From Chitinophagales bacterium (GTDB taxonomy: Bacteria; Bacteroidota; Bacteroidia; Chitinophagales; Chitinophagaceae): 64,000 nt of DNA. Where the stretch lies: positions 12,551 through 76,550 of the forward strand of contig JANPKD010000028.1 of NCBI GenBank assembly GCA_031425835.1, read 5' to 3'. The translations under genes and the position numbers were made by a program. A model generated the notes under the pieces. That model made no database searches. It was not told the DNA's origin and worked only from the letters and a program-made list of their open reading frames with translations. This document shows, piece by piece, positions 18,263-50,047 of this stretch; position 1 is the first letter of the stretch, and each line of letters begins with the position of its first letter.

Positions 18263-18285
18263 GAGGTTGGCTGAAACCAATCACA

Positions 18286-26053: not shown

Positions 26054-26077
26054 AATGTTTGCTGCCGCTATTCATCC

Positions 26078-26092
26078 TAAATTATCGTACCA
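26078..26092 (-). promoter_or_regulatory. Variant -24/-12-type element TGGTACG-ATAA-TTTA upstream of the receiver gene
   Basis: 24 nt upstream of the ATG at 26053. It shares the 8-mer GGTACGAT with the sites at 26198 and 36414. Confidence 0.45.
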
Positions 26093-26197
26093 ATGCCGAA
26101 ACCAATAACTGTACCGGCTAACTCCAAAATTATGATTCATCTGTAGAATTATGTACCTAACTTTCTTTTCGAAATTGATAAACAACACTGCTAAACT

Positions 26198-26212
26198 TGG
26201 TACGATTATTTA
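26198..26212 (+). promoter_or_regulatory. Variant -24/-12-type element TGGTACG-ATTA-TTTA upstream of ytxH-like gene
   Basis: 45 nt upstream of the ATG at 26258, divergent from the copy at 26078-26092. Confidence 0.45.
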
Positions 26213-26257
26213 AACAATTTAGCTACATCATTCATTTACCTTAAAAATATTAAAGCT

Positions 26258-28415: not shown

Positions 28416-28457
28416 GCTGATAAAATTTATTGGTTAAAAGATGTTCTACTACTCTTT

Positions 28458-28472
28458 GAAACAATTGTACCA
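28458..28472 (-). promoter_or_regulatory. Variant -24/-12-type element TGGTACA-ATTG-TTTC upstream of the DUF1328 gene
   Basis: 42 nt upstream of the ATG at 28415. Confidence 0.4.
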
Positions 28473-29061
28473 GTTTGCTGAATGGGATGAGCAATTTTTT
28501 CATTCAACAAATTGGACCTCCATTGAGGAAAAATTTCTACCAAGAGGCAAAAAAAAACAACCTCAACAACCTACACTTGAGCGCAAAAACATGGTATGTT
28601 TTTTACACTATTATTCAAATCATTCGATACTTACGACTATTTGCTTCAGCAATTATTATTTTAAAATGAGCACATCCAGCAACAGAAATCATTCAATTTT
28701 AAAAACTGCAAGCCCCGGCAAACCCACTGTTCCATTTGGCCGCCAGCCATCTCCAGGGCAAAAAATCAATGATCCGTCGTCCTCATATCCCAAAGAGGAG
28801 CACTACCCCATCCCCTCTTTTTTAAAGTACACGATGAAAGCGTCTGAATTGGAATTGAGATCATAACTTAACCCTGGCCTGCTTGCCCACTTCAGGACGG
28901 CATCTTTGTGGAAAAAATCCTTTTCCTGTAGAGCCTTCTCCCCACTTTTCGGTGTATTTTCATAAACCTACATCCAGCTAGTCCCCGACTACCGGCCTCA
29001 TTGATAAATTTTTCCTTACTGGTAGCAAGTTCTGGCGAACTGTAGCATTAAAACCAATTTT

Positions 29062-29105: not shown

Positions 29106-30521
29106 ATGATGAATCAACACCTTGCACAAAAACAAAGAATTAAAATTCTGCCTCAGCAAATTCAGTTACTCAATTTTTTTCATCTCAACACTCTGGAACT
29201 GGAACAACGAATTGAGCAGGAAATGGAGGACAACCCATTGTTGGAGGATCAGAACACCGAGTTTGAAGCCGACTCGGATAAGTTTAACAAGGACTCTGTT
29301 CAGGATTACCAGGATTGGGAAGAGCATGGCTACGACGATATACCCGACTACAAATTTGAGTACCAAAACTACCTGCACAACGACAAAGTACCCGAGCGGC
29401 CAATCTCGAACAGTTATGATTTTCGCCTGGCTTTAAAAGAACAGTACTGCGTAACTACAACCGAAGAGAAAGAAATTGTCTTCGCCCATTTTATAATTGA
29501 TTCGTTATCCGACGCAGGTTTGATGGAACAAAAGCTTGAAAGCCTTGCCGAAGACCTTTCGTTTAAATTGCACCGCTGGGTTGAAGAAGCCGATTTAGAG
29601 GCAATACTTTTAAAAATCCAGCAATTAGAACCTATTGGTATTGGCGCACGCAGCATTAAAGAATGCCTGTTGATACAGTTGCAACGCATGAATACAAAGC
29701 GGCCGGATGTAAAAACTGCCATTAACCTGCTCGATCAGCATTTTAATGATTTGCACAACCGCAACATGGACAAGATAAAAGCCCATTTAAACATTGATGA
29801 GGAAGAGTTGAAAATTGTTTTGCGATTGATTGCTTCACTAAAAATGCGCCCTGTTTGCGAAACGCAGGAAGGTGTGAACCAGAACATTATTCCCGATTTT
29901 ATAGTAACAAGAGTGGGCGACAATATTGAGGTGCAACTTTTTCGGCAGCGCAGCGAGGGCTTGAACATCAATACATCGTGGAAAGAAATGGCCGAGAATA
30001 ACGCCAAGGTTACTACCGATAAATCAGCCGTGCAGTACATCAAAAACAAATTGCAGTCGGCCCAGTGGTTTATACACGCAGTACAGCAAAGAGAAAGTAC
30101 TATGCTAAAAATAATGCGGTCGATTGTGGAAATGCAATTTGAATATTTTGTGACCGGGAACATTAACCTGCTTCAACCAATGATATTGAAAAACATTGCT
30201 GAAATAGTTGGGGTTGATATTTCAACCGTATCGAGAATTACCTGTAACAAGTACGCCGAAACACCTTTTGGATTAATATTGCTTAAAGATCTTTTTACCG
30301 AAGGTATCGCCAATCAAAAAGGCCAGGTCATCAGTAATAAGGTCATTCAATCGGCAATAGAAGAAGTAATAGAAACCGAAGACAAACATAATCCCTACAC
30401 CGATCAGCAACTGGTTAAAATCTTGAACCAAAAAGGATTTTCGGTTGCCCGGCGCACAGTGGCCAAATACCGCGAGCAGTTGCAAATACCGGTTTCGCAT
30501 GTCCGTGGTTTATGGGCATGA
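29106..30521 (+). CDS. rpoN: RNA polymerase sigma-54 factor
   Basis: Region I Q/L-rich start (LAQKQRIKILPQQIQLLNFF), acidic region II, core-binding region, HTH, and the RpoN box ARRTVAKYREQLQIP. Confidence 0.95.
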   Translation: MMNQHLAQKQRIKILPQQIQLLNFFHLNTLELEQRIEQEMEDNPLLEDQNTEFEADSDKFNKDSVQDYQDWEEHGYDDIPDYKFEYQNYLHNDKVPERPISNSYDFRLALKEQYCVTTTEEKEIVFAHFIIDSLSDAGLMEQKLESLAEDLSFKLHRWVEEADLEAILLKIQQLEPIGIGARSIKECLLIQLQRMNTKRPDVKTAINLLDQHFNDLHNRNMDKIKAHLNIDEEELKIVLRLIASLKMRPVCETQEGVNQNIIPDFIVTRVGDNIEVQLFRQRSEGLNINTSWKEMAENNAKVTTDKSAVQYIKNKLQSAQWFIHAVQQRESTMLKIMRSIVEMQFEYFVTGNINLLQPMILKNIAEIVGVDISTVSRITCNKYAETPFGLILLKDLFTEGIANQKGQVISNKVIQSAIEEVIETEDKHNPYTDQQLVKILNQKGFSVARRTVAKYREQLQIPVSHVRGLWA

Positions 30522-30588
30522 TCTTTAAACTAATTTTACCTTTTACAGAACTTAAAAATTCAATCGAACCTCAAAACAAATCAACTAA

Positions 30589-32079
30589 ATGCAAACCATT
30601 TTAATTATTGATGACGACAGGGACATGTGTATGTTACTTAAACGCTTCTTAACCCGTCATGGCTACGAAGTACTGGAAGCCTACACAGGCAAAAAATCGT
30701 TAGAACTCCTGGAAACTGTTGAGCCTTCGTTGGTGATGTGCGACTTTAGATTAGAGGACATGGAAGGCAATGTACTGCTTGCAAAAATAAAAGAACGTTA
30801 CCCGCATCTGCCCGTGATTATTATCACCGGCTATAGCGATATTAAAATGGCTGTGGAAGTAATGAAAATGGGCGCCTACGATTACATAACTAAGCCACTG
30901 TTTCCCGATGAAATTTTAGTGACTATTAAAAAAGCATTGGAGGCCGCCACCAAAGAAGCCAATGCACCTATCGGCAGTGTAGCCACCACCGCGGCAGCGC
31001 CACAAAAAACCGACCGACCTGCCTCCACCTCCACCGAAAAGCAACCGGTAATAACTGTTTCCGGCGATTATATTTTTGGCGACACGCCTGTATTCCGCCA
31101 AATTTTGCAGCAAATAGATTTGGTTGGCCCGACTAATTATACCGTTATCATTAATGGTGAAAGTGGCAGCGGTAAAGAAGCCGTGGCACAGGAAATTCAT
31201 AAACGCAGTAAAAGAAAGTCGAAACCATTCGTAGCAATTGATTGTGGTGCTTTATCTAAAGAGCTGGCGGGAAGCGAATTATTTGGTCACGAAAAAGGAT
31301 CATTCACCGGGGCACTCAATCAAAAAATGGGTTCGTTGGAAATGGCCAACGGCGGCACCATTTTTTTGGATGAAGTGGCCAACCTTTCTTACGATATTCA
31401 GGTGTCGCTGCTACGCGTGGTGCAGGAAAGAAAAATGCGCCGCGTAGGTGGTTTGAAGGACATTGAACTGGATGTGCGCATTATTATTGCCAGCAACGAA
31501 AAATTGTGGGATGCCGTACGCAAAGGCAAGTTTCGTGAAGATTTGTACCACCGCTTCAATGAATTTGGCATCGACATACCACCGCTGCGCCAACGGCCCG
31601 ATGACATCATGCTCTTCTCCAACCATTTTCTACAACAAACAAACGCCGAACTGGGCAAAAATGTAAAACGCTTTAGTCCGGAAGTGGAAAACATCTTTCG
31701 CACTTATGTTTGGTATGGTAACCTTCGGGAGTTGCGTAATGTAATTAAACGGGCCACTTTGCTGAACGACGGCGAAGAAATAGAAGCCAATTCCCTTCCA
31801 TTTGAAATAGCGCATTTCAGCAAACTACAATTTGATGCGACGCCAGAGCCGGCTGCGACCAATTCTATTCCTACCATTGCTACCGAAATTGCCGACTCGC
31901 CACGTAACATTTCGGAAACCACGTTAAAAGGCGCGAGTATAGATGCGGAATATGAAATGATTTTGAAAGCACTTAAAAAAGTAAACTTCAATAAAAGCAA
32001 AGCCGCCAAACTGCTGAACATTGACCGCAAGACTTTGTATAATAAAATGAAGCAGTACCAGGAATTCAACAACCAGTAA
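30589..32079 (+). CDS. Sigma-54-dependent response regulator (NtrC-type: REC + AAA+ + Fis-type HTH)
   Basis: REC (ILIIDDDRDM, CDFRLEDMEG). Walker A GESGSGKE, GSFTGA (a GAFTGA variant), Walker B FLDEV, and the arginine finger region. C-terminal HTH KSKAAKLLNIDRKTLYNKMK. Confidence 0.92.
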   Translation: MQTILIIDDDRDMCMLLKRFLTRHGYEVLEAYTGKKSLELLETVEPSLVMCDFRLEDMEGNVLLAKIKERYPHLPVIIITGYSDIKMAVEVMKMGAYDYITKPLFPDEILVTIKKALEAATKEANAPIGSVATTAAAPQKTDRPASTSTEKQPVITVSGDYIFGDTPVFRQILQQIDLVGPTNYTVIINGESGSGKEAVAQEIHKRSKRKSKPFVAIDCGALSKELAGSELFGHEKGSFTGALNQKMGSLEMANGGTIFLDEVANLSYDIQVSLLRVVQERKMRRVGGLKDIELDVRIIIASNEKLWDAVRKGKFREDLYHRFNEFGIDIPPLRQRPDDIMLFSNHFLQQTNAELGKNVKRFSPEVENIFRTYVWYGNLRELRNVIKRATLLNDGEEIEANSLPFEIAHFSKLQFDATPEPAATNSIPTIATEIADSPRNISETTLKGASIDAEYEMILKALKKVNFNKSKAAKLLNIDRKTLYNKMKQYQEFNNQ

Positions 32080-32093
32080 AACACCAAGGTTTT

Positions 32094-32567
32094 ATGCCCG
32101 ACCGAGCCGTGATTGATGCTGCAGCAACGCAGCCAGCCGAACAACATGGGGAGAAAAAGGTGTTTGTTGATTTAAATAAAATCATACAACAATGCCTTCT
32201 GAATTCTAGTTCGCTACAACGTGACCCCCGACCGGTTGTACGCTGTAGTAACCTCCCCGAAGTGGAGGGGGATGAGAGTGTCTTTGTTCGTCTGTTCGAT
32301 TTGCTGATCAAATCAATATTTAATCACCCGCCACCAGGTAAACAGCTTTTCCTGCATGTTGATTGCGAGCGGGTAAAGCAAATGCCTGCGGATGTTTCAG
32401 GTTTTCAAATAGACTTTTATACCAACCTGATTATTACAGACGACTGGATTGTAAAATACCAGCAATCCCTTTCACAGTGTCAAACAGAACTTGCGGAAAA
32501 CAATGCTGCACTCAAAATACACAATCCTCCTTCGCATGCCCGTTTGTTTACCATAACCTACCATTAA
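32094..32567 (+). CDS. Hypothetical protein, possibly a degenerate histidine-kinase ATPase-like domain
   Basis: 157 aa. LFDLLIKSIFNHPPPGKQLFLHV resembles an N-box region, but no G1/G2 nucleotide-binding boxes or HisKA are visible. Confidence 0.45.
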   Translation: MPDRAVIDAAATQPAEQHGEKKVFVDLNKIIQQCLLNSSSLQRDPRPVVRCSNLPEVEGDESVFVRLFDLLIKSIFNHPPPGKQLFLHVDCERVKQMPADVSGFQIDFYTNLIITDDWIVKYQQSLSQCQTELAENNAALKIHNPPSHARLFTITYH

Positions 32568-32583
32568 CTTTCTAAAATTAGCC

Positions 32584-34026
32584 ATGCCTTCACAATTGCC
32601 GAGTATAAAAATTTTAATAATTGATGATGATGAGGACGACTTTTTTATTACCTCGCAATACCTCAAAGAAATAAAGGAATACCAGTTGCAGGTTGACTGG
32701 TGTTTTAAATTTTCGGATGCCGTTGAGCAATTACGGACAAGAAAATACCAGATCTATTTTGTTGATTACCGGCTGGGTGCAAGAACTGGTCTCGACTTTT
32801 TAAAAGAGGCTGTACAACTAAAAGTAGAAGAACCCATTGTATTGCTTACCGGAAAGGGAAGCAAAAATGTTGACATTGAGGCCATGCAAATGGGCGCAAC
32901 CGATTACCTGGTAAAAACGGAACTGAACCCCGATAAGCTGGAACGCTGCATCAGGTACTCTTTAGAAAGATCGACCTATTTAAAGGCGCTTAGAGCGAAT
33001 GAAAAAAAATACAGGGGCATTTTCGAACTATCAAAAGATGCCGTGTTCATAGCGGATAAAAACCTGCGGTTTATGGATATGAACAGGGCCACCTCGCAGT
33101 TATTTGGCTATGAAAAAAAAGAGCTGCAACAAACAACGGTTTACCAACTAATGGCCAATGCAGCCGACAAAAGTTTGTTGCAAAATTTAATGGATAGTGA
33201 GGGTGAAGTAAACGATTTGGAGATCAACCTGCAAACAAAAAGCGGCGAAAGAAAAACCTGTATTTTTTCTGCAACCGCCACAGTGGATGAAGGGCAAGAA
33301 CTTTTCCAGGGTTTGTTGCACGACGTTACAACTATGCGCCGGGCCGAAAAAGCAAATTTACAAATGGAGAAACTCGGTGCCACAGGCAGGCTTGTGCGTA
33401 CACTTGCACATGAGGTACGCAATCCCCTCAACAACATTAACATGTCGGTGGAGCAGCTCCTGCAATCATCGCAGGAAGAAGATGAGGCCCATCTGTTTCT
33501 CGATATCGTGCAGCGCAACAGTATTCGCATTGGTAACATTATTACCGAGCTGCTTGATACCTCCCGCCCAACAGATTTGGTGTTTGATGAAAACAACCTG
33601 CAGGAAATAATGGAAGAAGCACTTGCCGATGCAATTGACCGCGTTACACTACAGCAGGTTGTATTGCATAAGAATTATGCTGCTCAACCCTCTATCATTA
33701 TGGCCAACAGCGAAAAATTAAAGATTGCTTTTTTAAACATTGTTATTAATGCGGTTGAAGCATCGCCTGCAGGCACCGGACAGTTGAACATTAGTATAGA
33801 GCCTGTGAAAGACGGGCATGCGGTTGTGATTAAAGACAACGGTTGCGGCATACCGGAAGAAAATATTTCCCGCCTTTTTGAACCATATTTTACGTCTAAG
33901 CGAAATGGAATGGGCCTTGGCCTTGCAGCTACGCTCAACATTTTGCAATCGCACAAAGCAAATATCGATGTTATGTCGGCTGTGGGCAAAGGCACTACCT
34001 TCACCATTACTTTTCCTGCATTATAA
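32584..34026 (+). CDS. Soluble hybrid sensor: N-terminal receiver + PAS + HisKA + HATPase_c histidine kinase
   Basis: REC (ILIIDDDEDDFF, FVDYRLGARTG). PAS (YRGIFELSKDAVFIADKNLRFMDMN). H-box LAHEVRNPLNNI, N-box NIVINAVEA, G1 IKDNGCGI and G2 GMGLGLA. No TM segments. Confidence 0.9.
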   Translation: MPSQLPSIKILIIDDDEDDFFITSQYLKEIKEYQLQVDWCFKFSDAVEQLRTRKYQIYFVDYRLGARTGLDFLKEAVQLKVEEPIVLLTGKGSKNVDIEAMQMGATDYLVKTELNPDKLERCIRYSLERSTYLKALRANEKKYRGIFELSKDAVFIADKNLRFMDMNRATSQLFGYEKKELQQTTVYQLMANAADKSLLQNLMDSEGEVNDLEINLQTKSGERKTCIFSATATVDEGQELFQGLLHDVTTMRRAEKANLQMEKLGATGRLVRTLAHEVRNPLNNINMSVEQLLQSSQEEDEAHLFLDIVQRNSIRIGNIITELLDTSRPTDLVFDENNLQEIMEEALADAIDRVTLQQVVLHKNYAAQPSIIMANSEKLKIAFLNIVINAVEASPAGTGQLNISIEPVKDGHAVVIKDNGCGIPEENISRLFEPYFTSKRNGMGLGLAATLNILQSHKANIDVMSAVGKGTTFTITFPAL

Positions 34027-34254
34027 AATTGGTAAGCTTTTACGGCGAAAAAGGTAAGCTCACCGATGACATTGATAGAATGGATAAGAACGAATTTTTT
34101 TTCACGGCCCAAAAGTGGATTTAAAACTGTTGTCAGAAATGTGTGATCAAAATGAGTACTGACCCAAATTTTACTAAGTAAAATAAATCCGTGATGATCC
34201 GTCCGAAATTTCGGACTAAGCTGTGCCATCCGTGTTCAAGAAACAACATGCCTG

Positions 34255-35719: not shown

Positions 35720-35785
35720 AAGCGCTTTTCAACAATACCTATCGCCGCAAAGCAGGCATTCTAAATGGCAATTCTTGTTTTAAAA

Positions 35786-35800
35786 GAAAATAGCTTGCCA
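35786..35800 (-). promoter_or_regulatory. Variant -24/-12-type element TGGCAAG-CTAT-TTTC upstream of the DUF326 gene
   Basis: 66 nt upstream of the ATG at 35719. Confidence 0.35.
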
Positions 35801-35860
35801 AATATGTTGACCACTGTACTGTGTTTGCCGACCTGCGCTTGGGTAGATAATTCTACAAAA

Positions 35861-36507: not shown

Positions 36508-37590
36508 TTACACCAACTCTTTTAAAATTTTCATCAACACTTTTTCTTCTGTTGTAAGCCCGGTAAGATTGTCGGGTTGTTCAATTTTGTCTAACTCTTT
36601 AAGGTATTTGCTCAAGTTCTTTTCCTCATACAATTTGATAATGCCCGGATGCACATAATATTTTTTACAAACCGTACGGCTGTTGCCTAATTTTTTGCTC
36701 ACTTCATCCAGCGCAGCAACTACATTTTTTTTTGAAGCGCTTTCCGATTCAGCTTCGCCAATTGATTGAAAAGCACGAATGATATTGAGTGTGCCCGCCC
36801 AGGTTCTAAAATCCTTTGCACTAAAATCGCCGCCCGTTGCGTCCTTTATGTATTTGTTTACCATGCCGGAGTCTACTGATTTTCTCTGCCCATCGTCATT
36901 GTAAAACTGAAACAACTCTTTGCCCGGAATTTCGCGACACTGCTGTACCATACGTGCCAGCCGCGGATGCCGCAACGATATTTCGTGCTCCACACCTTTT
37001 TTTCCTTTAAAAGAAAAATGCACCGAGCTGCCTTTAATTTTTACATGTCCATCTTTCAATGTTGTTAGGCCATACGAGCCGTATAATTTTTCGTAACCAT
37101 CGTTACCAATGCGGATATAGGTGCGTTCCATTAGGCCAATCACCGTGGCAATCACTTTTTCCTCACACAACTCTTTCCGCACCATATCCTCCTCCATTTT
37201 CATGCGCATGGAAGGCAGTAGTTTTCCAAATTCATACAGTCGGTGAAATTTTGTTTGGTTGCGCATTGAGTGCCAGAAAGCGTGGTAGCGATATTGTTTT
37301 CGACCACGGACATCAATGCCTGTGGCTTGTATGTGGCCATCGTCGGTGGCGCAGATCCAAACGTTTTCCCAGGCAGGTGGAATGGCTAATTTTTTTATTC
37401 TTTCCAACTCGGCTTTTGATTTTACCGACTTTCTATTAAGTACGTAAACAAAGCCGCTTCCTTTTTTTACACGATTAATGCCTTCGTCTTTGTCTGTTAC
37501 ATAATGCAGGTCGGCAGCCTTGGCCGCCTTTCCATAATCTTTATCAATCTTTAAAAACTCTTTGTGCGAAAGTTCAACAAGTGTTTCCAT
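36508..37590 (-). CDS. Type IB DNA topoisomerase (bacterial poxvirus-like TopIB)
   Basis: LHYVTD...GINR...GFVY......IKKLAIPPAWENVWIC....GHIQATG.D.RGRKQYRYH N-terminal domain. The C-terminal catalytic region includes FRTWAGT and the terminal tyrosine context KKYYVHP. The start is moved to the ATG at 37590 (METLVELSH), which removes the overlap with the upstream gene. Confidence 0.85.
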   Translation of the reverse strand: METLVELSHKEFLKIDKDYGKAAKAADLHYVTDKDEGINRVKKGSGFVYVLNRKSVKSKAELERIKKLAIPPAWENVWICATDDGHIQATGIDVRGRKQYRYHAFWHSMRNQTKFHRLYEFGKLLPSMRMKMEEDMVRKELCEEKVIATVIGLMERTYIRIGNDGYEKLYGSYGLTTLKDGHVKIKGSSVHFSFKGKKGVEHEISLRHPRLARMVQQCREIPGKELFQFYNDDGQRKSVDSGMVNKYIKDATGGDFSAKDFRTWAGTLNIIRAFQSIGEAESESASKKNVVAALDEVSKKLGNSRTVCKKYYVHPGIIKLYEEKNLSKYLKELDKIEQPDNLTGLTTEEKVLMKILKELV

Positions 37591-37600
37591 ATTACTGCAT

Positions 37601-38137
37601 TTATCTTGGGGCATCGTGCCTGCTTTCCATTTTTGTTTCGTGTAGTTCGGCGGCATCTTCAACCGAGTGAGAGGCGTGTAGATCGTCTTCTTTTTTTGCA
37701 AGCTGCGCAAGTTTTACATAAAAGTCCTTAAGTAGTTCAAGTTCGGTTTGCGTTAAATCTTCACCCACAATTAAACGGTTGCTTGCTCTGTCACTTGTGG
37801 CAATTAGTTCATTCAGTTTTAACTGTATTGCCATAGAATCTTTGTTTTGTGATTGCTGGATTAAAAACACCATTAAAAAAGTAACGATGGTAGTACCCGT
37901 ATTTATGACCAGCTGCCAGGTATCAGAAAAACGAAAGATGGGACCCGTTACTGCCCACACTAGTATAATGGCTGTGGCAAGTAAAAATGCAGTTGACGAT
38001 CCTGTAGCTTTTGTTATAGCACCGGCAACCCGCTCAAATTTTGAATGATTGGTGTTGCCGCGTTGACTAACAGCGTTAAGTTCATTTGCCGCAGCATGTA
38101 ATACTTCGTCTTCTTCTTTTTGAAAGCCTGCCCTCAT
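37601..38137 (-). CDS. Low-affinity iron permease family membrane protein
   Basis: FERVAGAITKATGSSTAFLLATAIILVWAVTGPIF.FSDTWQLVINTGTTIVTFLMVFLIQQSQNKD signature. The ATG at 38137 is preferred over the TTG at 38161 used by the ORF track, because the TTG lies inside the predicted promoter. Confidence 0.8.
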   Translation of the reverse strand: MRAGFQKEEDEVLHAAANELNAVSQRGNTNHSKFERVAGAITKATGSSTAFLLATAIILVWAVTGPIFRFSDTWQLVINTGTTIVTFLMVFLIQQSQNKDSMAIQLKLNELIATSDRASNRLIVGEDLTQTELELLKDFYVKLAQLAKKEDDLHASHSVEDAAELHETKMESRHDAPR

Positions 38138-38157
38138 AAAAAATTTATCGATCACGT

Positions 38158-38172
38158 GCAATGATAAAGCCA
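38158..38172 (-). promoter_or_regulatory. Canonical sigma-54 promoter TGGCTTT-ATCA-TTGC(A) for the iron-permease / TopIB operon
   Basis: Exact GG-N10-GC spacing and a TTGCA -12 box. The predicted start site is near 38146, 9 nt upstream of the ATG at 38137. Confidence 0.65.
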
Positions 38173-38572
38173 GACCCTAAAGTCGGACTGTATGTATGGC
38201 GGGGACGGATCATTCGATTAGTTTTTTTCAGTTTTTTTCACCGAACATTTGTCGCAGTAATTCCGGAGTTATGTTTCTCTTTCACTGCTTCAGTTTATAG
38301 CATCGGGGGGCCACATACAAGGCAACCGGTGTTTATGAACGCTTTAAAAAATCAGAAATCTTAATGACCATCACTTGCCAAGGGGCAGCTAATTCAACAA
38401 CAACGTAATTAATTGTCAGAATCAAAGTTCTATGTGTCCGCACTGTGTCTTGCAATTGCTGCGTGGGTCATTACGATCGTATGTACTGGGTTGCAGTGAG
38501 GTGCAAATGTGTGTAGATAAACTTCCACAGCGAGCGGGGGCTTGTGGCTTTCTATAAAGGCAAGGCTGATTG

Positions 38573-38587
38573 TGGTACTCAATTTGA
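38573..38587 (+). promoter_or_regulatory. Near-canonical sigma-54-type promoter TGGTACT-CAAT-TTGA for the Ku/LigD operon
   Basis: GG-N10-GA spacing, with the G of the -12 GC conserved. It lies 31 nt upstream of the ATG at 38619 and is divergent from the site at 38158-38172. Confidence 0.5.
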
Positions 38588-38618
38588 ACTGATGCCTACA
38601 GAAAACTAAATATTTTTT

Positions 38619-39110
38619 ATGGCTGCTCATTACCAACTCAATTTTATACAGGATAAAATTGCACAAATCCAAAGTGCAATTTGCTTCAATCTAAGTGATT
38701 CTGTTTTAAAGTTACCTACCAGTGTTATTACAACTTTAAAGGTTGATGACTATGGCTTCGTGTGGTTTATGATGCAAAAGCCAAAGCAGTGTTTGAAGGA
38801 ATTTGAGGATGAGTTTCCGGTACGCCTTGATTATTTCAAAAAAGGAATCAATTCGTTTTTACAGGTGTCGGGTAAGGGATGTGTCGTATGCGACCCGGAG
38901 GAACTAAACACCCTCGGTTTATCGGACGACGCATTCAAATCCTTCAATGCTCAAAAAGATGTGCTGGTAAAAGTAAAAATATTGAAGGCAGAATGCTACG
39001 ATACTACACCCACCTCCAGCCACTCCTGGTTTAAAAACCGGTTAACAGCAATTACAAAATGGCTGCATCACAATAATTATGGACGACAAATTTATTATCC
39101 AGCCTCCTAA
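38619..39110 (+). CDS. Pyridoxamine-5-phosphate-oxidase-like / general stress protein 26-like protein (tentative)
   Basis: 163 aa with a split-barrel-like pattern (VITTLKVDDYGFVWFMM...FLQVSGKGCVV...VKVKILKAECY). The assignment rests on resemblance only. Confidence 0.5.
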   Translation: MAAHYQLNFIQDKIAQIQSAICFNLSDSVLKLPTSVITTLKVDDYGFVWFMMQKPKQCLKEFEDEFPVRLDYFKKGINSFLQVSGKGCVVCDPEELNTLGLSDDAFKSFNAQKDVLVKVKILKAECYDTTPTSSHSWFKNRLTAITKWLHHNNYGRQIYYPAS

Positions 39111-39122
39111 AAATATTTAAGT

Positions 39123-39899
39123 ATGCATGTAATATGGTCTGGCGCAATAAGCTTTGGTTTAGTAAATATTCCCGTTAAATTGAGTAGTGCAGTTGAAAGC
39201 GGAAGTGAATTGAACTTCGACATGCTTTCTAAAAAAGACATGGCACCGATACGTTACGCAAGAATTGATACGAAGACTGAAAAAGAAGTTGAGTGGAAAA
39301 ATATTGTAAAGGGTTATGAGTATGCCAAAGGAAAATATGTTGTGATTACAGATGAGGATTTTGAAAAAGCCAGGGCCGAAAAATCGCACACGATAGAAAT
39401 TCTGCAGTTTGTAAAAGAGGAAGAGATTAACCCTATTTACTACGAAAAGCCCTACTATGTTTCTCCCGATAAAGGCGCCGGCAAATCGTACCAGCTAATT
39501 ATAAAGGCACTTGAAAAAACCAAAACGGTTGGCCTTGCCGAGTTTATGTTGCGTAACCGCATGCACCTCTGTGCTTTAAAAGTACACGAGGGTGTTTTGT
39601 TGCTCAACCAAATGCGCTACCACGATGAGTTGAGGGAGGTGCCCGCCATCGCCGGTACTAAAGCCGAAATATCCGTGAAGGAAGTGGACCTGGCAGTAAA
39701 ACTAATTCACCAGCTTACCGAAAAGTTTGAGCCAACCGCTTTCAAAGACAATTATATAGCCGCTCTAAAAAAAGTGATAAAATCAAAAGCCTCAGGCAAA
39801 ACTCTGCGCATAGCCGAACCTGTAAAAAAATCGGCCACAGTAAAAGATTTAATGGAGGTGCTCAAACAAAGCCTCGAAACAAAAAAGAAAACGGCCTAA
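39123..39899 (+). CDS. ku: Ku protein (non-homologous end joining)
   Basis: IWSGAISFGLVNIPVKL.SA......F.ML.......IRY.......KEVEW..IVKGYEY..GKYV core, with a basic C-terminal tail. Confidence 0.93.
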   Translation: MHVIWSGAISFGLVNIPVKLSSAVESGSELNFDMLSKKDMAPIRYARIDTKTEKEVEWKNIVKGYEYAKGKYVVITDEDFEKARAEKSHTIEILQFVKEEEINPIYYEKPYYVSPDKGAGKSYQLIIKALEKTKTVGLAEFMLRNRMHLCALKVHEGVLLLNQMRYHDELREVPAIAGTKAEISVKEVDLAVKLIHQLTEKFEPTAFKDNYIAALKKVIKSKASGKTLRIAEPVKKSATVKDLMEVLKQSLETKKKTA

Positions 39900-39960
39900 C
39901 GATTTTTTTCCTTCTGCATGCGCACTTGCAACTTTGTAAACGCCACAACATTTTCGCACC

Positions 39961-41664
39961 ATGTCACTTTCAGTTTACAATAAAAAAAGAAATTTTAAAG
40001 TCACCACTGAACCCGTTGGAAAAGAAAAAACGGCAAAAGGCAAACTCCGGTTTGTTGTTCAAAAACACGACGCCTCGCACCTCCACTACGACTTTCGGTT
40101 GGAGATAGAAGGTGTGCTAAAAAGTTGGGCGGTACCAAAGGGCCCGTCGCTAAACCCAGCCGACAAACGGCTTGCAATGGCCGTGGAAGATCATCCTTTC
40201 GATTACAGAAATTTTGAGGGAATTATACCGGAAGGCAACTATGGTGGCGGCACGGTAATCGTTTGGGATGAAGGCACATACCAACCAGTTGGGGGGGAGC
40301 ATTTAACAAAAGCCGAACAGGAAAAATTACTCCTTACCCAACTAAAAGACGGCAGCTTAAAAATTATTGTACATGGAGAAAAGTTAGGCGGCGAGTTTGC
40401 TTTGTTTTTAATGAAGGGCCGTGGCGAACGGTCGTGGATATTGATGAAAAAGAAAGATGAGTTTTCCACCACCGCAAATGTTCTATTGGAGGATGCCTCG
40501 GTAAAATCGGGAAAAACGCTGGCCGAAGTAGCCGCTGAAAATGGTACGGTAATCAAACACCCCGAAGAAGCAAAACCCAGTAAAAAAGAAAAACCAAAAG
40601 CACCGGAATTATTGCCTAAAAAAACAGCAGCAGGCAAAAAAACAAAAGCGCCGAAACAAAAAACAACATCTGAAACTGTTGCGGGTAAAAAAAAGAAGGC
40701 GTCTCCAAAAATAAAAACATCGGGGCTGCAGATAGACATAACTGCGGGTGCCGATCAGACAATTGTTATCGATAAACATGAGCTGACTATTACCAGCCTC
40801 AATAAATTGTACTGGAAAAAAGAAAAGTTTAGCAAGGGCGATACCATCAATTATTATTTGCAGGCAGCACCCTATATTTTGCCGTACATGATCGGCAGGC
40901 CACAATCGCTCAACAGGCACCCGAACGGAATTGATGGACCCAGTTTTTATCAAAAAGACATGAAGGGAAAACTGCCGGAGTGGATGGAAACGCACAAAGA
41001 CTTTTCTGAATCAACCAGCAAAACAGTGGAGTATTTGGTGTGCAGTAACGAGGCAACTTTAATTTACATGGCCAATTTGGGTTGTATAGAAATGCATCCC
41101 TGGCATTCGCAAACGGCAAACTGGCAAAACCCTTACTGGTGCCTGATTGACCTGGATCCCGATACAAAAAACAGTTTTGCCCAGGTGATGGAAACAGCCC
41201 TGGTTACAAAAAATATTTTAGACGATATAGGTGCGGACAGTTACATAAAAACCTCAGGCTCCACGGGGCTCCATATTTATATTCCACTTGCCGCGCAATA
41301 CAGTTTCGATCAGTCGAAACAATTAGCCGAACTGGTTGTAAATCTTGTAAACGACCAGCTGCCTGAAACAACAAGCGTTGAACGAACACCGGCAAAAAGA
41401 AAAGGGAAAATTTATCTTGATTATTTACAAAACCGGGAAACCCAAACCGCAGCGGCGCCATATTCTTTACGGCCAAAACCTGGGATGCCTGTATCAACCC
41501 CCCTGCATTGGAGCGAAATAAAAAAAGGTTTGACGGCAACTACATACAACGCAAAAAATATTTTTGAACGTTTAAAAACCGAAGGTGATTTGTTTGCCCC
41601 CGTTTTGGGGAAAGGCATCAACCTGAAAAAAGTATTGGCTAATTTAACGGCCTTAATAAAATGA
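39961..41664 (+). CDS. ligD: LigD-type protein with 3-prime-phosphoesterase and polymerase/primase domains but no ligase domain
   Basis: PE domain RFVVQKHDASHLHYDFRLE..GVLKSWAVPKGPS. A Lys/Pro-rich linker follows. Pol domain LTITSLNKLYW...GRPQSLNRHPNGI...FYQKD...IDLDPD...SGSTGLHIYIPL...KIYLDYLQN. I see no adenylation KxDG motif anywhere in the 567 aa. Confidence 0.88.
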   Translation: MSLSVYNKKRNFKVTTEPVGKEKTAKGKLRFVVQKHDASHLHYDFRLEIEGVLKSWAVPKGPSLNPADKRLAMAVEDHPFDYRNFEGIIPEGNYGGGTVIVWDEGTYQPVGGEHLTKAEQEKLLLTQLKDGSLKIIVHGEKLGGEFALFLMKGRGERSWILMKKKDEFSTTANVLLEDASVKSGKTLAEVAAENGTVIKHPEEAKPSKKEKPKAPELLPKKTAAGKKTKAPKQKTTSETVAGKKKKASPKIKTSGLQIDITAGADQTIVIDKHELTITSLNKLYWKKEKFSKGDTINYYLQAAPYILPYMIGRPQSLNRHPNGIDGPSFYQKDMKGKLPEWMETHKDFSESTSKTVEYLVCSNEATLIYMANLGCIEMHPWHSQTANWQNPYWCLIDLDPDTKNSFAQVMETALVTKNILDDIGADSYIKTSGSTGLHIYIPLAAQYSFDQSKQLAELVVNLVNDQLPETTSVERTPAKRKGKIYLDYLQNRETQTAAAPYSLRPKPGMPVSTPLHWSEIKKGLTATTYNAKNIFERLKTEGDLFAPVLGKGINLKKVLANLTALIK

Positions 41665-42551
41665 CCATGCACCCCTCACTAACGGTGTTTGATAACGAAG
41701 TAGCACAATACATACATACAGATTTTGAAATTGAAACGCTTACCAACGATTGTGGCTTCACCGAAGGACCGGTATGGAATGCTGATGGTTTTTATTTATT
41801 CAGCGATATAGAACACAACGTTGTGTACAAAATTTTCCCTGGCAAAAAGAAAAGCGTTTTTATAGACAATAGCGGCACCGAAAATATTAATGACCCGGAT
41901 CTAAAACCCGGGCAAATCGGATCGAATGGTTTGGCGTATGATGTGAACGGGCAACTCCTCGTTTGCAGGCATGGTAGTCATTGCGTGTCGTATGTAAGCA
42001 ACAACGTTTTACAACCATTGTTTGAAACTTTTGAAAACAGGCCTTTCAACAGTCCTAATGATATTGTAGTACATAAAAACGGCAGCATTTATTTTAGCGA
42101 TCCGCCATATGGATTAAAAGATGGCCAACTGAATCCAAAAAAGTTTCAACCCCAGGCCGCCGTGTATTGTTTTAGAAATGGTGCATTGAAAATTATTTGT
42201 AACACCTACCAGTATCCTAATGGTGTCTGTCTTTCTGCAAATGAAAAATTGCTGTACATCTGCTCAAACAAACCATTTGAAAAATTTATTTCGTTGTACG
42301 ACACCGAAACGAATGCTTTCATCAAAACTTTTGCGGAAGAAAACAGTGATGGAATAAAATGCGACCGAAACGGAAATGTGTATCTCTGTAGTAAAGACGG
42401 TATCATTATTTTGAACAACACGGGAAAACGATTGGCGTTGATTGCATTGCCAACACAACCGGCCAACATTTGCTGGGGCGGAAGCAACACAAACGACTTG
42501 TTTATTACTGCAAGAGAAAATATTTTTTTGATACGCAACTTGCAGAAGTAA
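41661..42551 (+). CDS. SMP-30/gluconolactonase/LRE-family beta-propeller protein
   Basis: GFTEGPVWNADGFYLFSDIEHNVVYKI, NSPNDIVVHKNGSIYFSDP and PNGVCLS motifs. Its start overlaps the ligD stop (ATGA). Confidence 0.85.
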   Translation: MTMHPSLTVFDNEVAQYIHTDFEIETLTNDCGFTEGPVWNADGFYLFSDIEHNVVYKIFPGKKKSVFIDNSGTENINDPDLKPGQIGSNGLAYDVNGQLLVCRHGSHCVSYVSNNVLQPLFETFENRPFNSPNDIVVHKNGSIYFSDPPYGLKDGQLNPKKFQPQAAVYCFRNGALKIICNTYQYPNGVCLSANEKLLYICSNKPFEKFISLYDTETNAFIKTFAEENSDGIKCDRNGNVYLCSKDGIIILNNTGKRLALIALPTQPANICWGGSNTNDLFITARENIFLIRNLQK

Positions 42552-47479: not shown

Positions 47480-47494
47480 TGGCATCATAGTTTT
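47480..47494 (+). promoter_or_regulatory. Variant -24/-12-type element TGGCATC-ATAG-TTTT
   Basis: 36 nt upstream of the ATG at 47531. Confidence 0.3.
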
Positions 47495-47530
47495 CGGATA
47501 AAAAATGTTTTAAATTCTTACCATTAAAAA

Positions 47531-47977
47531 ATGCTAGTAGAAAATTCAAAAGGCCGTTCTTCAAACGGTGGTGGCCGTAGCGACGATCAACGCGAAAGTA
47601 AAACTCAAAAAGCTACCTCAGGCCAAGAAACAAAAAAGAGAGGCCAGACCGATGACAGCTCCAGTAACAGCAACTCAAGAAGCAGCACCGATTCAGGTCG
47701 CGGAAATGGCGGGGTCATAGTCGTTAAGAAGAGGAGTCTTTTTTTAATGCCGGTAATCAGGCTACTTTTTTTTGCACCTGATTTTTCATGCGCAAAAATT
47801 CTTTTAGAAAATCAACCTCCTTCTGCAAATAAGCCTCGCCGTTTTCGCGAAAAATATCATGAAACCAGAGTTCCGGTTCGTTTAAATATTCTTTGCTCCA
47901 CGAATCCCATGGACAATGGGTTTGCGATTTACCAGCAACCAGCCCCCAGTTGTAAGCGCCTATATTATATTCCTTAA
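47531..47977 (+). CDS. Questionable ORF: Gly/Ser/Arg-rich hydrophilic N-terminal ~70 aa, with the remainder antisense to the GH5-like gene
   Basis: The N-terminal part MLVENSKGRSSNGGGRSDDQRESKTQ...DSGRGNGG resembles small stress-protein composition and has an upstream motif. However, the frame stays open for 220 nt across the convergent gene, which argues against the full ORF. Confidence 0.25.
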   Translation: MLVENSKGRSSNGGGRSDDQRESKTQKATSGQETKKRGQTDDSSSNSNSRSSTDSGRGNGGVIVVKKRSLFLMPVIRLLFFAPDFSCAKILLENQPPSANKPRRFREKYHETRVPVRLNILCSTNPMDNGFAIYQQPAPSCKRLYYIP

Positions 47978-49183: not shown

Positions 49184-49732
49184 TTACTCCGCCGCGGCCT
49201 CGTAGTTGATGTTATTCTCAGCAATGTCTGTAAGGAGCATATCAGTTTCCTTTTCTTCATTAAGTGTTTGCTCCAATAACTCCGCAGCCTCAGCATGACC
49301 AAGCGTTTCGGCCAATTGCCGTAGTCCGCCGTAAGTGGCAATTTCGTAATGCTCCACTTTTTGCGCCGCCAGTATCAAGCCTACATCCCGCGTAGAGGTA
49401 CCCGCATCTGTGTCTTCAATAATACCTTCGCCTTCTTTGATAAGGCCTTCGATGGCTTCGCATTTTTTTGCGCTGGCCTTTGCTCCAATTGATTGAAACA
49501 CCTGTTCAAGCCGGGTAACCTGCTCTTTTGATACTGCTAAATGATCTTCAAATGCGGCCTTCAGCTTATCCGAAGTGGCTGCCTTTTGCATTTTGGGAAG
49601 CGCCTTAATAATTGCCTTTTCCGCATAATACACGTCTTTCAAAGAATCGAGAAAAAGTTCCTGCAGCAAAGCATCACCCTGTGCTGCTCCTGCGTTTTTT
49701 GGTTGTTTTGTTTTTGAAGTTGTCTTTGCCAT
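49184..49732 (-). CDS. DUF892 (YciE/YciF-like) ferritin-like stress protein
   Basis: LKDVYYAEKAIIKALPKM...AFEDHL..SKEQV.RLEQVF...CEAIEGLI.EGE......AAQKVEHYEIATYG.L pattern. Confidence 0.85.
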   Translation of the reverse strand: MAKTTSKTKQPKNAGAAQGDALLQELFLDSLKDVYYAEKAIIKALPKMQKAATSDKLKAAFEDHLAVSKEQVTRLEQVFQSIGAKASAKKCEAIEGLIKEGEGIIEDTDAGTSTRDVGLILAAQKVEHYEIATYGGLRQLAETLGHAEAAELLEQTLNEEKETDMLLTDIAENNINYEAAAE

Positions 49733-49757
49733 AATTTTCTAGTTTTACTAACGCATC

Positions 49758-49772
49758 AAAAAAATAATGCCA
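49758..49772 (-). promoter_or_regulatory. Variant -24/-12-type element TGGCATT-ATTT-TTTT upstream of the DUF892 gene
   Basis: TTGGCATTATTTTTTTGAT is followed by exactly 22 nt before the ATG at 49732. The DUF2383 site has the same TTTTGAT-N22-ATG arrangement. Confidence 0.45.
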
Positions 49773-50047
49773 ACTACTAACTATACCGGGCAGTGAGCCT
49801 GGAACTGCGAGCTTGTGTATCATTGGCTACTCTAAACCTGATGTCAAAATACACACATCAGCATTTTGCAGCGAAATAGGGAAATTTAATAACCACTAAA
49901 AAATCAAATACGTTCAACTCACTACTTGATAGCGAAGGCTAAGGCAACCTCTACTAAAAAGCCCGGGGCTTGCTATCTCCGTAGCCATGGACGTGCCGGT
50001 AATGTTTGAGACTAATTATAGGCGGCAGGCAAAATCTACAACCCTTT

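What the first reader, a model, noticed from the sequence alone, without database searches (positions are those of the whole stretch)
38137..38619. Divergent sigma-54-type promoters controlling TopIB/iron-permease and Ku/LigD operons
The minus strand at 38172-38157 reads TGGCTTT-ATCA-TTGCA, with exact GG-N10-GC spacing and a consensus -12 box. It lies 20 nt upstream of the ATG at 38137 of the low-affinity iron permease gene, which is followed by topoisomerase IB. About 400 nt away on the plus strand, 38573-38587 reads TGGTACT-CAAT-TTGA, with GG-N10-GA spacing. It lies 31 nt upstream of a four-gene string: PNPOx-like, Ku, LigD(PE+Pol) and SMP-30. The spacer between the two sites is rich in ATGTGT/TGTGT words (38431-38510), similar to the AATGTGT in the glf-operon upstream region. 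Putting NHEJ and a type IB topoisomerase under an enhancer-dependent sigma factor would be an unusual regulatory design for DNA repair.
Basis: partly seen in the sequence, partly recalled or inferred. Interest (0 to 1): 0.8.

Follow-up and report, generated by a model that had tools for sequence, protein, structure and literature searches.

The report
Sigma-54-type promoter upstream of Ku–LigD
One of the two proposed sites is a strongly conserved sigma-54-type promoter with its own activator-binding site in front of a DNA end-joining (Ku–LigD) operon in a soil Bacteroidota bacterium, and it belongs to a stress-gene island that also encodes sigma-54 and its activator; the other proposed site is only the leftover of a transcription terminator.

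Summary
Both strings are in the sequence as described, and the gene calls are right. Neither string is rarer than chance within the window.

Site 2 (38573-38588 +, TGGTACTCAATTTGAA) is real. About 90 related Flavisolibacter/Chitinophagaceae loci keep TGGTAY-N5-TTGG upstream of the same PNPOx-like–Ku–LigD–SMP-30 operon. A conserved TGT-N10-ACA element (window 38512-38529) lies 56-61 nt upstream of it, across a spacer that is not conserved.

The same element pair precedes other stress genes in the window: YtxH, DUF1328, DUF326 and a lone receiver-domain gene; the DUF892 paralog has the promoter element with a TGT-N10-ACA palindrome further upstream. The window also encodes rpoN, an NtrC-type activator and a histidine kinase (29106-34026). 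TSS-mapped sigma-54 promoters of Flavobacterium psychrophilum also use −12 TTGA or TTGT.

Site 1 (38172-38157 −) is not a promoter. Its TGGCTTT is the 3′ arm plus T-run of the terminator of a DUF892 gene that relatives have and the window has lost. Its TTGCA is not conserved. In relatives, the true divergent promoter lies upstream of that lost gene.

Verdict: partly supported. This is a new target set for a known mechanism, and it is not experimentally tested.

The parts
38573..38588 (+). -24/-12-type promoter element TGGTAC-TCAAT-TTGA(A). GG is at 38574-75 and the TTG at 38584-86. The predicted transcription start is about 38598-38601.
   Evidence: Sequence. Conserved as TGGTAY-N5-TTGG in 47/47 and 43/44 related loci. 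Information content 1.48 bits per column against 0.10 in the spacer. The -12 TTGA is identical to that of the TSS-mapped F. psychrophilum clpB sigma-54 site.
38512..38529 (+). Upstream activator site TGTAGA-TAAACT-TCCACA, with a TGT-N10-(A/C)CA quasi-palindromic core. It starts 61 nt before the TGG.
   Evidence: The consensus TGTAGAGTTTTTTACACA lies 56-61 nt (mode 58-59) upstream of the promoter in 44 and 39 loci, although the spacer is not conserved. PWM score 14.9.
38619..42551 (+). Downstream operon: PNPOx-like (38619-39110), Ku (39123-39899), LigD with PE and Prim-Pol domains and no ligase domain (39961-41664), SMP-30/SGL (41661-42551).
   Evidence: Pfam, NCBIfam, synteny in about 45 genome loci.
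38157..38192 (-). Decayed intrinsic terminator of a lost DUF892 gene.
   Evidence: Relatives have GCCAGACC-loop-GGTCTGGC-TTTTTC(A/T)TT directly after the DUF892 stop codon, with compensatory arm changes. Hairpin energies are -16.8 and -17.5 kcal/mol (z -3.5 and -4.1) in relatives, against -8.8 (z -0.4) in the window.
36508..38137 (-). Iron permease (37601-38137) and TopIB (about 36508-37590). In relatives they lie downstream of DUF892 and its promoter. In the window they have no recognisable promoter of this type.
   Evidence: Pfam, synteny. There is no TGG-type element on the minus strand within 100 nt of the UAS. Only 1-mismatch sigma-A -7-like boxes are present.
29106..34026 (+). rpoN (29106-30521), NtrC-type EBP with REC-AAA+-HTH_8 domains and a GSFTGA motif (30589-32079), a 157-aa protein of unknown function (32094-32567), and a hybrid histidine kinase with REC-PAS-HisKA-HATPase domains (32584-34026).
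   Evidence: TIGR02395 score 361 against a cut-off of 277. Full-length alignment to solved sigma-54 structures, with the R383 equivalent conserved. The same gene order occurs in L080-L083.
35785..35857 (-). Second instance of the pair: UAS TGTAGAATTATCTACCCA (35857-35840), then 57 nt on, TGGCAAGCTATTTTCT (35800-35785), upstream of DUF326/Csp (ATG 35719).
26077..26213 (.). Divergent instance: TGGTACGATAATTTA (26092-26078, minus) leading to the receiver-domain gene; UAS TGTAGAATTATGTACCTA (26142-26159); TGGTACGATTATTTA (26198-26212, plus) leading to the YtxH operon.
   Evidence: Conserved in L080 and L082.
28457..28607 (.). Divergent instance: TGGTACAATTGTTTCA (28472-28457, minus) leading to DUF1328; UAS GGTAGAAATTTTTCCTCA (28541-28524, minus); TGGTATGTTTTTTACA (28592-28607, plus) leading to a 66-aa ORF.
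   Evidence: The three blocks are conserved in L080 and L082.
49757..49861 (-). TGGCATTATTTTTTTG (49772-49757) 40 nt before the DUF892 paralog (49184-49732), with a TGT-N10-ACA palindrome at 49861-49838.
   Evidence: (PWM score 19.3).

Best explanation
Site 2 is most likely a sigma-54-dependent promoter that needs an enhancer-binding protein (EBP), and it drives the PNPOx-like–Ku–LigD–SMP-30 operon.

Proposed mechanism:
- RNA polymerase carrying sigma-54 (encoded at 29106-30521) binds TGGTAC-N5-TTGA as a closed complex.
- The NtrC-type response regulator encoded next to rpoN (30589-32079) binds the TGT-N10-ACA site centred about 50 bp upstream of the -24 GG. It is presumably phosphorylated by the PAS histidine kinase at 32584-34026.
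- The activator contacts the polymerase from a fixed face of the helix and uses ATP to open the promoter. Transcription should start near 38598-38601.
- The same promoter/UAS pair precedes other stress-type genes in a conserved island: YtxH, DUF1328, DUF326/Csp, DUF892, and in relatives DUF892–(iron permease)–TopIB. End-joining would therefore be switched on as part of a stress or dormancy regulon.

Site 1 is not a promoter. It is the eroded terminator of a DUF892 gene that was deleted from this genome together with its own -24/-12-type promoter.

What is shown: the conservation, the spacing constraint, the recurrence of the pair, and the presence of rpoN, EBP and kinase genes. What is inferred: that sigma-54 and this particular EBP act here, what the signal is, and where transcription starts.
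For: 1. The motif is invariant across about 90 orthologous loci whose Ku is 59-79% identical, while the flanking sequence is free to vary.

2. The distance from UAS to promoter is held at 56-61 nt on the PNPOx side. On the DUF892 side it is 54-55 nt, with variants at 43-45, 32 and 65 nt. These steps are about one helical turn each.

3. The pattern TGG[CT]A[CTA]-N5-TT[TG] occurs 9 times in the 110-nt upstream zones of 52 window genes, against 0.29 expected (maximum 3 in 2000 shuffles). In L080, 7 of 8 hits lie 49-66 nt upstream of a gene start on the correct strand; in L082, 5 of 8 lie 23-73 nt upstream.

4. Across 164 sequences there are 188 UAS+promoter pairs. 85 precede PNPOx-like orthologs and 70 precede DUF892; others precede Csp, DUF5670-like, YtxH and ligD genes.

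5. rpoN (full length, passes TIGR02395), an NtrC-type EBP with HTH_8, and a histidine kinase sit in the same syntenic island.

6. The motif has GG-N10-G spacing and a TGGYAY -24 box. TSS-mapped sigma-54 promoters of the Bacteroidota species F. psychrophilum read TGGCAT-AATTT-CTGA (groES), TGGAAT-AACAA-TTGA (clpB) and TGGCAC-GATTT-TAGT (remF, validated by mutagenesis). A missing -12 C is therefore normal in this phylum (PMC9723704).

7. For site 1, see the terminator alignment, arm covariation and folding energies.
Against: - There are no transcription data for this organism, so neither the start site nor rpoN/EBP dependence is known.
- The DUF892-type promoters read TGGCAY-N5-TTT(T/A). They lack even the -13 G and also resemble a sigma-A -7 box (TAnnTTTt).
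- A single 18-bp UAS centred only about 50 bp from the -24 box is closer than in classical NtrC/NifA systems.
- The two sides of the shared UAS are offset by about 4-6 bp rather than being in the same helical phase.
- The window's site has TTGA where all about 90 relatives have TTGG, and its UAS distance (61 nt) is at the edge of the observed range.
- I could not check whether the genome has a second rpoN or other EBPs.
- No canonical TGGCAC-N5-TTGC promoter was available from this clade for comparison.
Confidence: 0.72

Rival explanations
1. The conserved TGGYAY…TTK block and the TGT-N10-ACA block are binding sites for ordinary transcription factors acting on a Bacteroidota sigma-A (-33/-7) or ECF-type promoter. 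Sigma-54 is not involved, and the neighbouring rpoN/EBP genes are coincidental.
For: The DUF892-type sites contain TATATTTT or TATTTTTT, which is 7 of 8 matches to the sigma-A -7 box TAnnTTTG. The -12 GC of the textbook sigma-54 consensus is absent. A UAS at about -75 with strict spacing also resembles class-I activation of sigma-70-type promoters (my own knowledge).
Against: In the PNPOx-type sites, the position that would be the invariant A of the -7 'TA' is T, C or G. No TTG lies 17-23 nt upstream, and no other conserved -7 box lies between the motif and the ATG. The invariant part is TGG, 10 nt before TTG. That is the sigma-54 geometry and matches TSS-mapped Flavobacterium sigma-54 sites. 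The 16-nt compact motif does not fit ECF -35/-10 spacing. The island co-conserves rpoN with an EBP carrying a Fis-type HTH.
Confidence: 0.17
2. One reading: both sites in the window are functional sigma-54 promoters, and site 1 drives iron permease and TopIB.
For: Site 1 has the better textbook match, TGGC-N7-TTGCA with GG-N10-GC spacing, 19 nt before the ATG at 38137.
Against: The pattern occurs at the chance rate. The TGGCTTT half is homologous to the terminator 3' arm plus T-run in every relative, and the TTGCA half varies (TTAGC, TTTAG, TTAAT and others). No UAS lies at a phased distance on that strand. A start about 12 nt downstream would leave a leader of only about 8-10 nt.
Confidence: 0.04
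3. Site 2 is ancestrally a promoter but is decaying or inactive in this genome.
For: The window alone has TTGA instead of the invariant TTGG. The UAS second half is TCCACA, and the spacing is at the extreme of the range (61 nt). The locus has also lost DUF892 with its promoter, and the ligase domain of LigD.
Against: All four ORFs are intact. TTGA is a working -12 element in the F. psychrophilum clpB and groES sigma-54 promoters. TCCCCA and TCCACA variants of the UAS occur in relatives.
Confidence: 0.15
4. The conserved blocks are an RNA element in a long 5' leader, such as a riboswitch or sRNA, rather than DNA sites.
For: The intergenic region is long (482 nt).
Against: There is no Rfam hit at E up to 1 in this intergenic region; the only hit in 37000-40000 is a chance lncRNA match at 37400-37423. 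The blocks are invariant rather than covarying. The spacer length is constrained while its sequence is free. The same blocks serve both strands in relatives.
Confidence: 0.02

Closest known systems
Classical NtrC/NifA-type sigma-54 promoters (glnAp2, nifH) with upstream activator sequences
   Same: A -24 TGGYAY box and a -12 TTG box 10 nt apart. A palindromic UAS of the TGT-N10-ACA form (the NifA UAS has this form; my own knowledge). Spacing variants in steps of one helical turn. An EBP with REC-AAA+-HTH_8 architecture and a partner histidine kinase.
   Different: There is a single UAS centred only about 50 bp from the -24 box. The -12 C is absent (TTGG, TTGA or TTTT). The targets are stress and DNA-repair genes rather than nitrogen metabolism. 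The EBP scores below the cut-off of every named NCBIfam equivalog.
Sigma-54 regulon of Flavobacterium psychrophilum (motif SM4; PMC9723704)
   Same: Same phylum. The -24/-12 sites are TSS-mapped, with -12 TTGA, CTGA or TTGT and a T-rich spacer, like the window's TGGTAC-TCAAT-TTGA. The regulon is stress-related: chaperones, Lon and ClpB.
   Different: The listed target genes are different (proteostasis, gliding, envelope). Ku/LigD, TopIB, DUF892 and YtxH are not listed. No UAS is described, and rpoN is not reported next to its EBP.
Stress-sigma control of bacterial NHEJ: RpoE2/EcfG in Sinorhizobium meliloti (PMC6379672); sigma-G in Bacillus spores (my own knowledge)
   Same: ku and ligD are placed in a general-stress or dormancy regulon together with small stress proteins.
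   Different: Those systems use sigma-70-family factors without an ATPase activator. Here the signature is -24/-12 plus an EBP.
Rho-independent terminator (for site 1)
   Same: In relatives, a GC-rich 8-10-bp stem with compensatory changes, followed by TTTTT, directly after a stop codon.
   Different: In the window the 5' arm and the T-run are mutated and the upstream gene is gone, so it is a relic.

Membership tests
Sigma-54 (-24/-12) promoter: site 2 | GG and a TTG(C) box separated so that GG-N10-G(C), with TGGYAY at -24 | tested here: met
   TGGTAC-TCAAT-TTGA. Relatives have TGGTAY-N5-TTGG, and distant ones TGGCAC-TGCTT-TTGG. The -12 C is absent, as in TSS-mapped Flavobacterium sites.
Sigma-54 (-24/-12) promoter: site 2 | Conserved in orthologous upstream regions beyond the neutral background | tested here: met
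   47/47 and 43/44 loci. 1.48 against 0.10 bits per column.
Sigma-54 (-24/-12) promoter: site 2 | The genome encodes sigma-54 and at least one EBP with a GAFTGA-type loop | tested here: met
   rpoN at 29106-30521 and an EBP at 30589-32079 with GSFTGA.
Sigma-54 (-24/-12) promoter: site 2 | Upstream activator site with face-of-helix dependence | tested here: met
   UAS at 56-61 nt. On the DUF892 side, distances of 32, 43-45, 54-55 and 65 nt. That this particular EBP binds it was not tested.
Sigma-54 (-24/-12) promoter: site 2 | Transcription starts about 12 nt downstream of the -12 box and requires rpoN and ATP hydrolysis by an EBP | not testable with these tools
   No transcriptome or genetics are available for this organism.
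Sigma-54 (-24/-12) promoter: site 1 | Conservation of both boxes in orthologous upstream regions | tested here: not met
   The TGGC half is a terminator arm, and the TTGCA half varies in all relatives.
Sigma-54 (-24/-12) promoter: site 1 | Occurrence above chance | tested here: not met
   3 found against 4.5 expected.
Intrinsic terminator: site 1 region | Stable GC-rich hairpin followed by a U-run after a stop codon, with compensatory changes | tested here: met
   Met in relatives (-16.8 and -17.5 kcal/mol; GCCGGGC…GGTCCGGC covariation). Decayed in the window (-8.8 kcal/mol, z -0.4).
Bacteroidota sigma-A promoter (-33 TTG / -7 TAnnTTTG): site 2 | TA at the start of the -7 box, and TTG 17-23 nt upstream | tested here: not met
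   The position of the invariant A is C, T or G, and there is no suitably spaced TTG.

The most novel reading that the evidence does not exclude
In Chitinophagaceae, which like other Bacteroidota lack RpoS, SigB and EcfG (my own knowledge), sigma-54 together with one dedicated NtrC-type activator and kinase encoded beside rpoN could be the master switch of a general-stress or dormancy regulon. That regulon would include NHEJ (Ku/LigD), topoisomerase IB and ferritin-like and small stress proteins. It would be an enhancer-dependent functional analogue of the general stress sigma factors of other phyla.
Probability: 0.4. Interest if true: 0.75.

Novelty: new variant of a known kind. Interest (0 to 1): 0.62.

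Why it matters
In the few species where it is known, bacterial NHEJ is controlled by sigma-70-family stress or sporulation sigma factors. My literature searches found no report of enhancer-dependent sigma-54 control of Ku/LigD.

The regulator of the general stress or dormancy response in Bacteroidota is not established. Here a compact, conserved set of cis-elements sits in a syntenic island that encodes rpoN, an EBP and a kinase. This gives a directly testable candidate: one EBP knockout and a handful of reporters.

The case also shows that textbook GG-N10-GC matching misleads in this phylum. The better-looking site was a terminator relic, and the real site has a -12 TTGA.

Tried and rejected
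- Pattern statistics alone. Single-site scores are at chance level, so they cannot decide the question. Conservation and positional enrichment were needed.
- Rfam scan of 37000-40000: nothing relevant.
- Sigma-70 consensus and terminator scan: uninformative for Bacteroidota.
- Search for remnants of the DUF892 gene in the window's intergenic region by tblastn, blastx and blastn. None were found beyond the terminator arm and the promoter motif, so the deletion boundaries could not be defined.
- Looking for closer relatives. The exact-protein lookup failed. The first metagenome scan with the PNPOx-like protein found nothing. The scan with Ku gave nothing above 79% identity.
- Looking for the motif upstream of ku outside Chitinophagaceae (Chryseobacterium, Dysgonomonadaceae and others): essentially absent, so the regulon is clade-specific.
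- Canonical TGGYAY-N5-TTGC sites in 1.2 Mb of related loci: only 5, all inside long ORFs. The clade's 'housekeeping' sigma-54 consensus could therefore not be derived.
- rpoN autoregulation. UAS-like words upstream of the window's rpoN (28927, 29041) are not conserved in L080 or L082. Rejected.
- Link to the glf-operon upstream region. There is a TGTAGA half-site at 47278 and an ACACAATGTGT palindrome at about 47368, but no properly spaced -24/-12 partner. Not supported.
- Whether RpoN has an altered -12-reading helix. The R383 equivalent is conserved, and nothing decisive emerged.
Full report
**What is at the coordinates.**
The flanking genes are as described. On the minus strand are a low-affinity iron permease (37601-38137) followed by a type IB topoisomerase. 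On the plus strand are a weak PNPOx-like protein (38619-39110), Ku (39123-39899), a LigD with only the phosphoesterase and primase-polymerase domains (39961-41664), and an SMP-30/SGL protein (41661-42551).

As bare patterns neither site is unusual:
- TGGC-N7-TTGC occurs 3 times in the window against 4.5 expected.
- TGG-N8-TTGM occurs 22 times against 28.6 expected.
- Matches with up to 3 mismatches to TGGCACG-N4-TTGCW occur 87 times against 111 expected.
- Rfam finds nothing relevant in the region.

**Taxon and synteny.**
Ku relatives place the window in Flavisolibacter/Chitinophagaceae (Bacteroidota), with the best hit at 79% identity. The order TopIB ← iron permease ← | → PNPOx-like → Ku → LigD → SMP-30 is kept in about 45 genome loci.

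Nearly all relatives have one extra minus-strand gene between the iron permease (or TopIB) and the PNPOx-like gene. It encodes a 188-aa DUF892/YciF-type protein. The window lacks this gene here and keeps only a 54%-identical paralog at 49184-49732.

**Site 1 is a terminator relic.**
In relatives the DUF892 stop codon is followed by GCCAGACC-loop-GGTCTGGC-TTTTTC(A/T)TT, about 30 nt before the iron permease ATG. These hairpins are strong: -16.8 and -17.5 kcal/mol, with z-scores of -3.5 and -4.1. They also show compensatory arm changes, for example GCCGGGC…GGTCCGGC.

The window retains GGGTCTGGCTTTATCATTGCA. The 'TTGCA' half corresponds to unconserved sequence in relatives (TTAGC, TTTAG, TTAAT and others). 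The window's hairpin has decayed (-8.8 kcal/mol, z -0.4). No activator-type site lies at a suitable distance on that strand. Site 1 is therefore a chance resemblance created by a dead terminator.

**Site 2 is a conserved promoter-type element with a phased upstream site.**
Upstream of the PNPOx-like gene, 47 of 47 genome loci carry (T)6-(G/A)TGGTAY-N5-TTGG. More distant Chitinophagaceae carry TGGCAC-TGCTT-TTGG. In an independent set of soil-metagenome contigs, 43 of 44 loci carry it. Anchored on the TGG, the motif holds 1.48 bits per column, against 0.10 in the 34-nt spacer upstream.

A second block, consensus TGTAGAGTTTTTTACACA with a TGT-N10-ACA core, lies 56-61 nt upstream (mode 58-59) in 44 and 39 loci. 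The sequence between the two blocks is not conserved. In the window this block is TGTAGATAAACTTCCACA at 38512-38529, 61 nt before the TGG.

**A true divergent partner exists in relatives.**
In relatives, the minus strand on the other side of the same palindrome carries TGGCA(C/T)-N5-TTT(T/A), about 55 nt before the DUF892 ATG. Its distance from the palindrome is 54-55 nt in most loci, with variants at 43-45, 32 and 65 nt, which are steps of about one helical turn.

The ancestral layout is therefore two divergent -24/-12-like elements around one shared activator site. The left-hand unit is DUF892, then a terminator, then (iron permease) and TopIB. The window has lost DUF892 and this promoter. 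On the iron permease side I found only 1-mismatch sigma-A -7-like boxes (TATCATTG at 38166, TAAATTTT at 38147) and no -33 TTG. What transcribes iron permease and TopIB in this genome is unknown.

**The element defines a regulon, and rpoN and its activator are in the same island.**
A six-frame motif scan found an RpoN box and a GSFTGA loop in the window. Pfam and NCBIfam confirm four adjacent genes:
- a full-length rpoN at 29106-30521 (TIGR02395 score 361 against a cut-off of 277);
- an NtrC-type EBP with REC-AAA+-HTH_8 domains at 30589-32079;
- a conserved 157-aa protein of unknown function;
- a REC-PAS-HisKA-HATPase kinase at 32584-34026.

The RpoN aligns end to end with solved sigma-54 structures. 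It is 78-83% identical to more than 100 Flavisolibacter-type RpoN proteins. The whole island has the same gene order in two other genome-scale contigs from this clade: LptFG, citrate synthase, REC ←|→ YtxH operon, DUF1328, rpoN-EBP-p158-HK, BrkB, Csp, DUF2383, TopIB, DUF892.

Within the window the same pair of elements recurs:
- Upstream of DUF326/Csp: UAS at 35857-35840, then 57 nt on, TGGCAAGCTATTTTCT.
- Between the receiver-domain gene and the YtxH operon: two divergent TGGTACGAT(A/T)ATTTA elements around TGTAGAATTATGTACCTA.
- Between DUF1328 and a 66-aa ORF.
- The promoter element also sits 40 nt before the DUF892 paralog.

The loose pattern TGG[CT]A[CTA]-N5-TT[TG] occurs 9 times in the 110-nt upstream zones of 52 window genes, against 0.29 expected (maximum 3 in 2000 shuffles). 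In L080, 7 of 8 hits lie 49-66 nt before a gene start on the right strand. Across all 164 sequences, 188 UAS+promoter pairs were found. Of these, 85 precede PNPOx-like orthologs and 70 precede DUF892. Most of the rest precede Csp, DUF5670-like or YtxH genes, or (in some relatives) ligD itself; 13 have no downstream ORF.

**Is it sigma-54?**
The geometry is the sigma-54 geometry: a TGGYAY box with GG 10 nt before a TTG box. The main objection is the missing -12 C.

Published data for the same phylum remove most of that objection. In Flavobacterium psychrophilum, the TSS-mapped sigma-54 sites (motif SM4, Table S2 of PMC9723704) read as follows:
- groES: TGGCAT-AATTT-CTGA
- clpB: TGGAAT-AACAA-TTGA
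- remF (validated by mutagenesis): TGGCAC-GATTT-TAGT
- muramidase: TGGCAT-AGCTT-TTGT
- asmA: AGGCAA-GATAT-TTGC

The window's TGGTAC-TCAAT-TTGA fits this series, although it is the only one of about 90 orthologous sites with A instead of G after the TTG.

A sigma-A reading fails for the PNPOx-type sites. The position of the invariant A of TAnnTTTG is C, T or G, and no TTG lies 17-23 nt upstream.

Weak points remain:
- The DUF892-type sites lack the -13 G and look partly like a -7 box.
- The UAS is single and close, about 50 bp from the -24 box.
- The two sides of the shared UAS are offset by 4-6 bp.
- I could not test for a second rpoN or other EBPs.
- There are no transcription data.

I put the sigma-54/EBP mechanism at about 0.7.

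**Comparison with what is known, and novelty.**
Mechanistically this looks like an NtrC/NifA-type enhancer-dependent promoter. The closest documented relative is the Flavobacterium sigma-54 regulon, which covers chaperones, proteases and gliding genes. NHEJ genes are known to sit in stress regulons run by sigma-70-family factors, for example RpoE2 in S. meliloti (PMC6379672). A 2025 cross-phylum sigma-54 survey (PMC12316311) does not mention LigD, and my searches found no report of sigma-54 control of Ku/LigD.

The finding is therefore a new target set and a compact new architecture for a known mechanism, predicted from sequence only. If confirmed, it would nominate sigma-54 plus one EBP as the general-stress or dormancy switch in Chitinophagaceae.

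Noticed in passing
window 39961-41664: The window's LigD (567 aa) has only the phosphoesterase and primase-polymerase domains. The ortholog in F. ginsengisoli (L005:6960-9755, 931 aa) also has the ATP-dependent ligase domains PF01068 and PF04679 between them. No ligase domain was found elsewhere in the window, so this NHEJ operon cannot seal DNA ends on its own. L026 and L039 appear to share the short form.
   Followed up: partly
window 38138-38618, compared with L001-L048: The window lacks the DUF892 gene and its promoter that nearly all relatives have between the iron permease and the PNPOx-like gene. Apart from the terminator arm and the promoter motif, the 482-nt spacer has no detectable similarity to relatives. 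L026, L030 and L011 also lack the gene.
   Followed up: partly
window 38433-38449: Direct repeat TGTGTC-N5-TGTGTC with an 11-nt period, about 65-80 nt upstream of the UAS. It resembles the TGTGTA half-site. It is not conserved in relatives, so it is either an auxiliary activator half-site or chance.
   Followed up: no
window 32094-32567; L080:13002-13478; L082:13010-13513: A conserved protein of 157-167 aa with no Pfam or NCBIfam match is always wedged between the EBP and the histidine kinase. It may be an unknown component of the signalling module.
   Followed up: no
L014:~4623, L097:~2053, L103:~4212, L106:~4203: In some relatives a second element, TGGCA(T/C)AA(A/G)TTTTT, lies 27-28 nt before the ligD ATG, in an enlarged Ku–LigD gap. 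This suggests an internal promoter for ligD.
   Followed up: no
L014, L016, L018, L021, L023, L025, L043 and others: 5' leader of the PNPOx-like gene: Many relatives have a conserved small inverted repeat, GTGAGTCTCTTTGATTACTCAC, between the promoter element and the ATG. It is absent from the window.
   Followed up: no
window 18248-18263 and 47480-47495: The promoter-type element occurs without a recognisable UAS 38 nt before an SDR gene (18286-19152) and 51 nt before a 148-aa ORF of unknown function (47531-47977). These may be served by another activator, or they may be chance.
   Followed up: partly
window 28927-28944 and 29041-29058: UAS-like words (TGTAGAGCCTTCTCCCCA and TGTAGCATTAAAACCAAT) and a weak TGGTTGCAGAGTTGTG lie upstream of rpoN. 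They are not conserved in L080 or L082, so there is no support for direct rpoN autoregulation.
   Followed up: yes
window 18101-18175: A single tRNA-Ala (GGC) on the minus strand, directly upstream of the SDR gene's promoter-like element.
   Followed up: no
L019 (JBLNAY010000212.1), L075 (CAYOJJ010000011.1), L001: L019 is labelled 'Candidatus Dadabacteria' but carries the complete Flavisolibacter-type locus with both cis-elements. L075 is labelled as an alphaproteobacterial MAG. Both are probably mis-binned contigs. L001 (a long-read MAG) has LigD split into several ORFs, probably by frameshift errors.
   Followed up: no
window 33684-34229 (minus): A 181-aa ORF overlaps the 3' end of the kinase gene by about 340 nt. 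It has homologs in relatives (43-60% identity) but no Pfam hit. In L082 a PNPOx-like gene occupies this position. The true start is probably internal.
   Followed up: no
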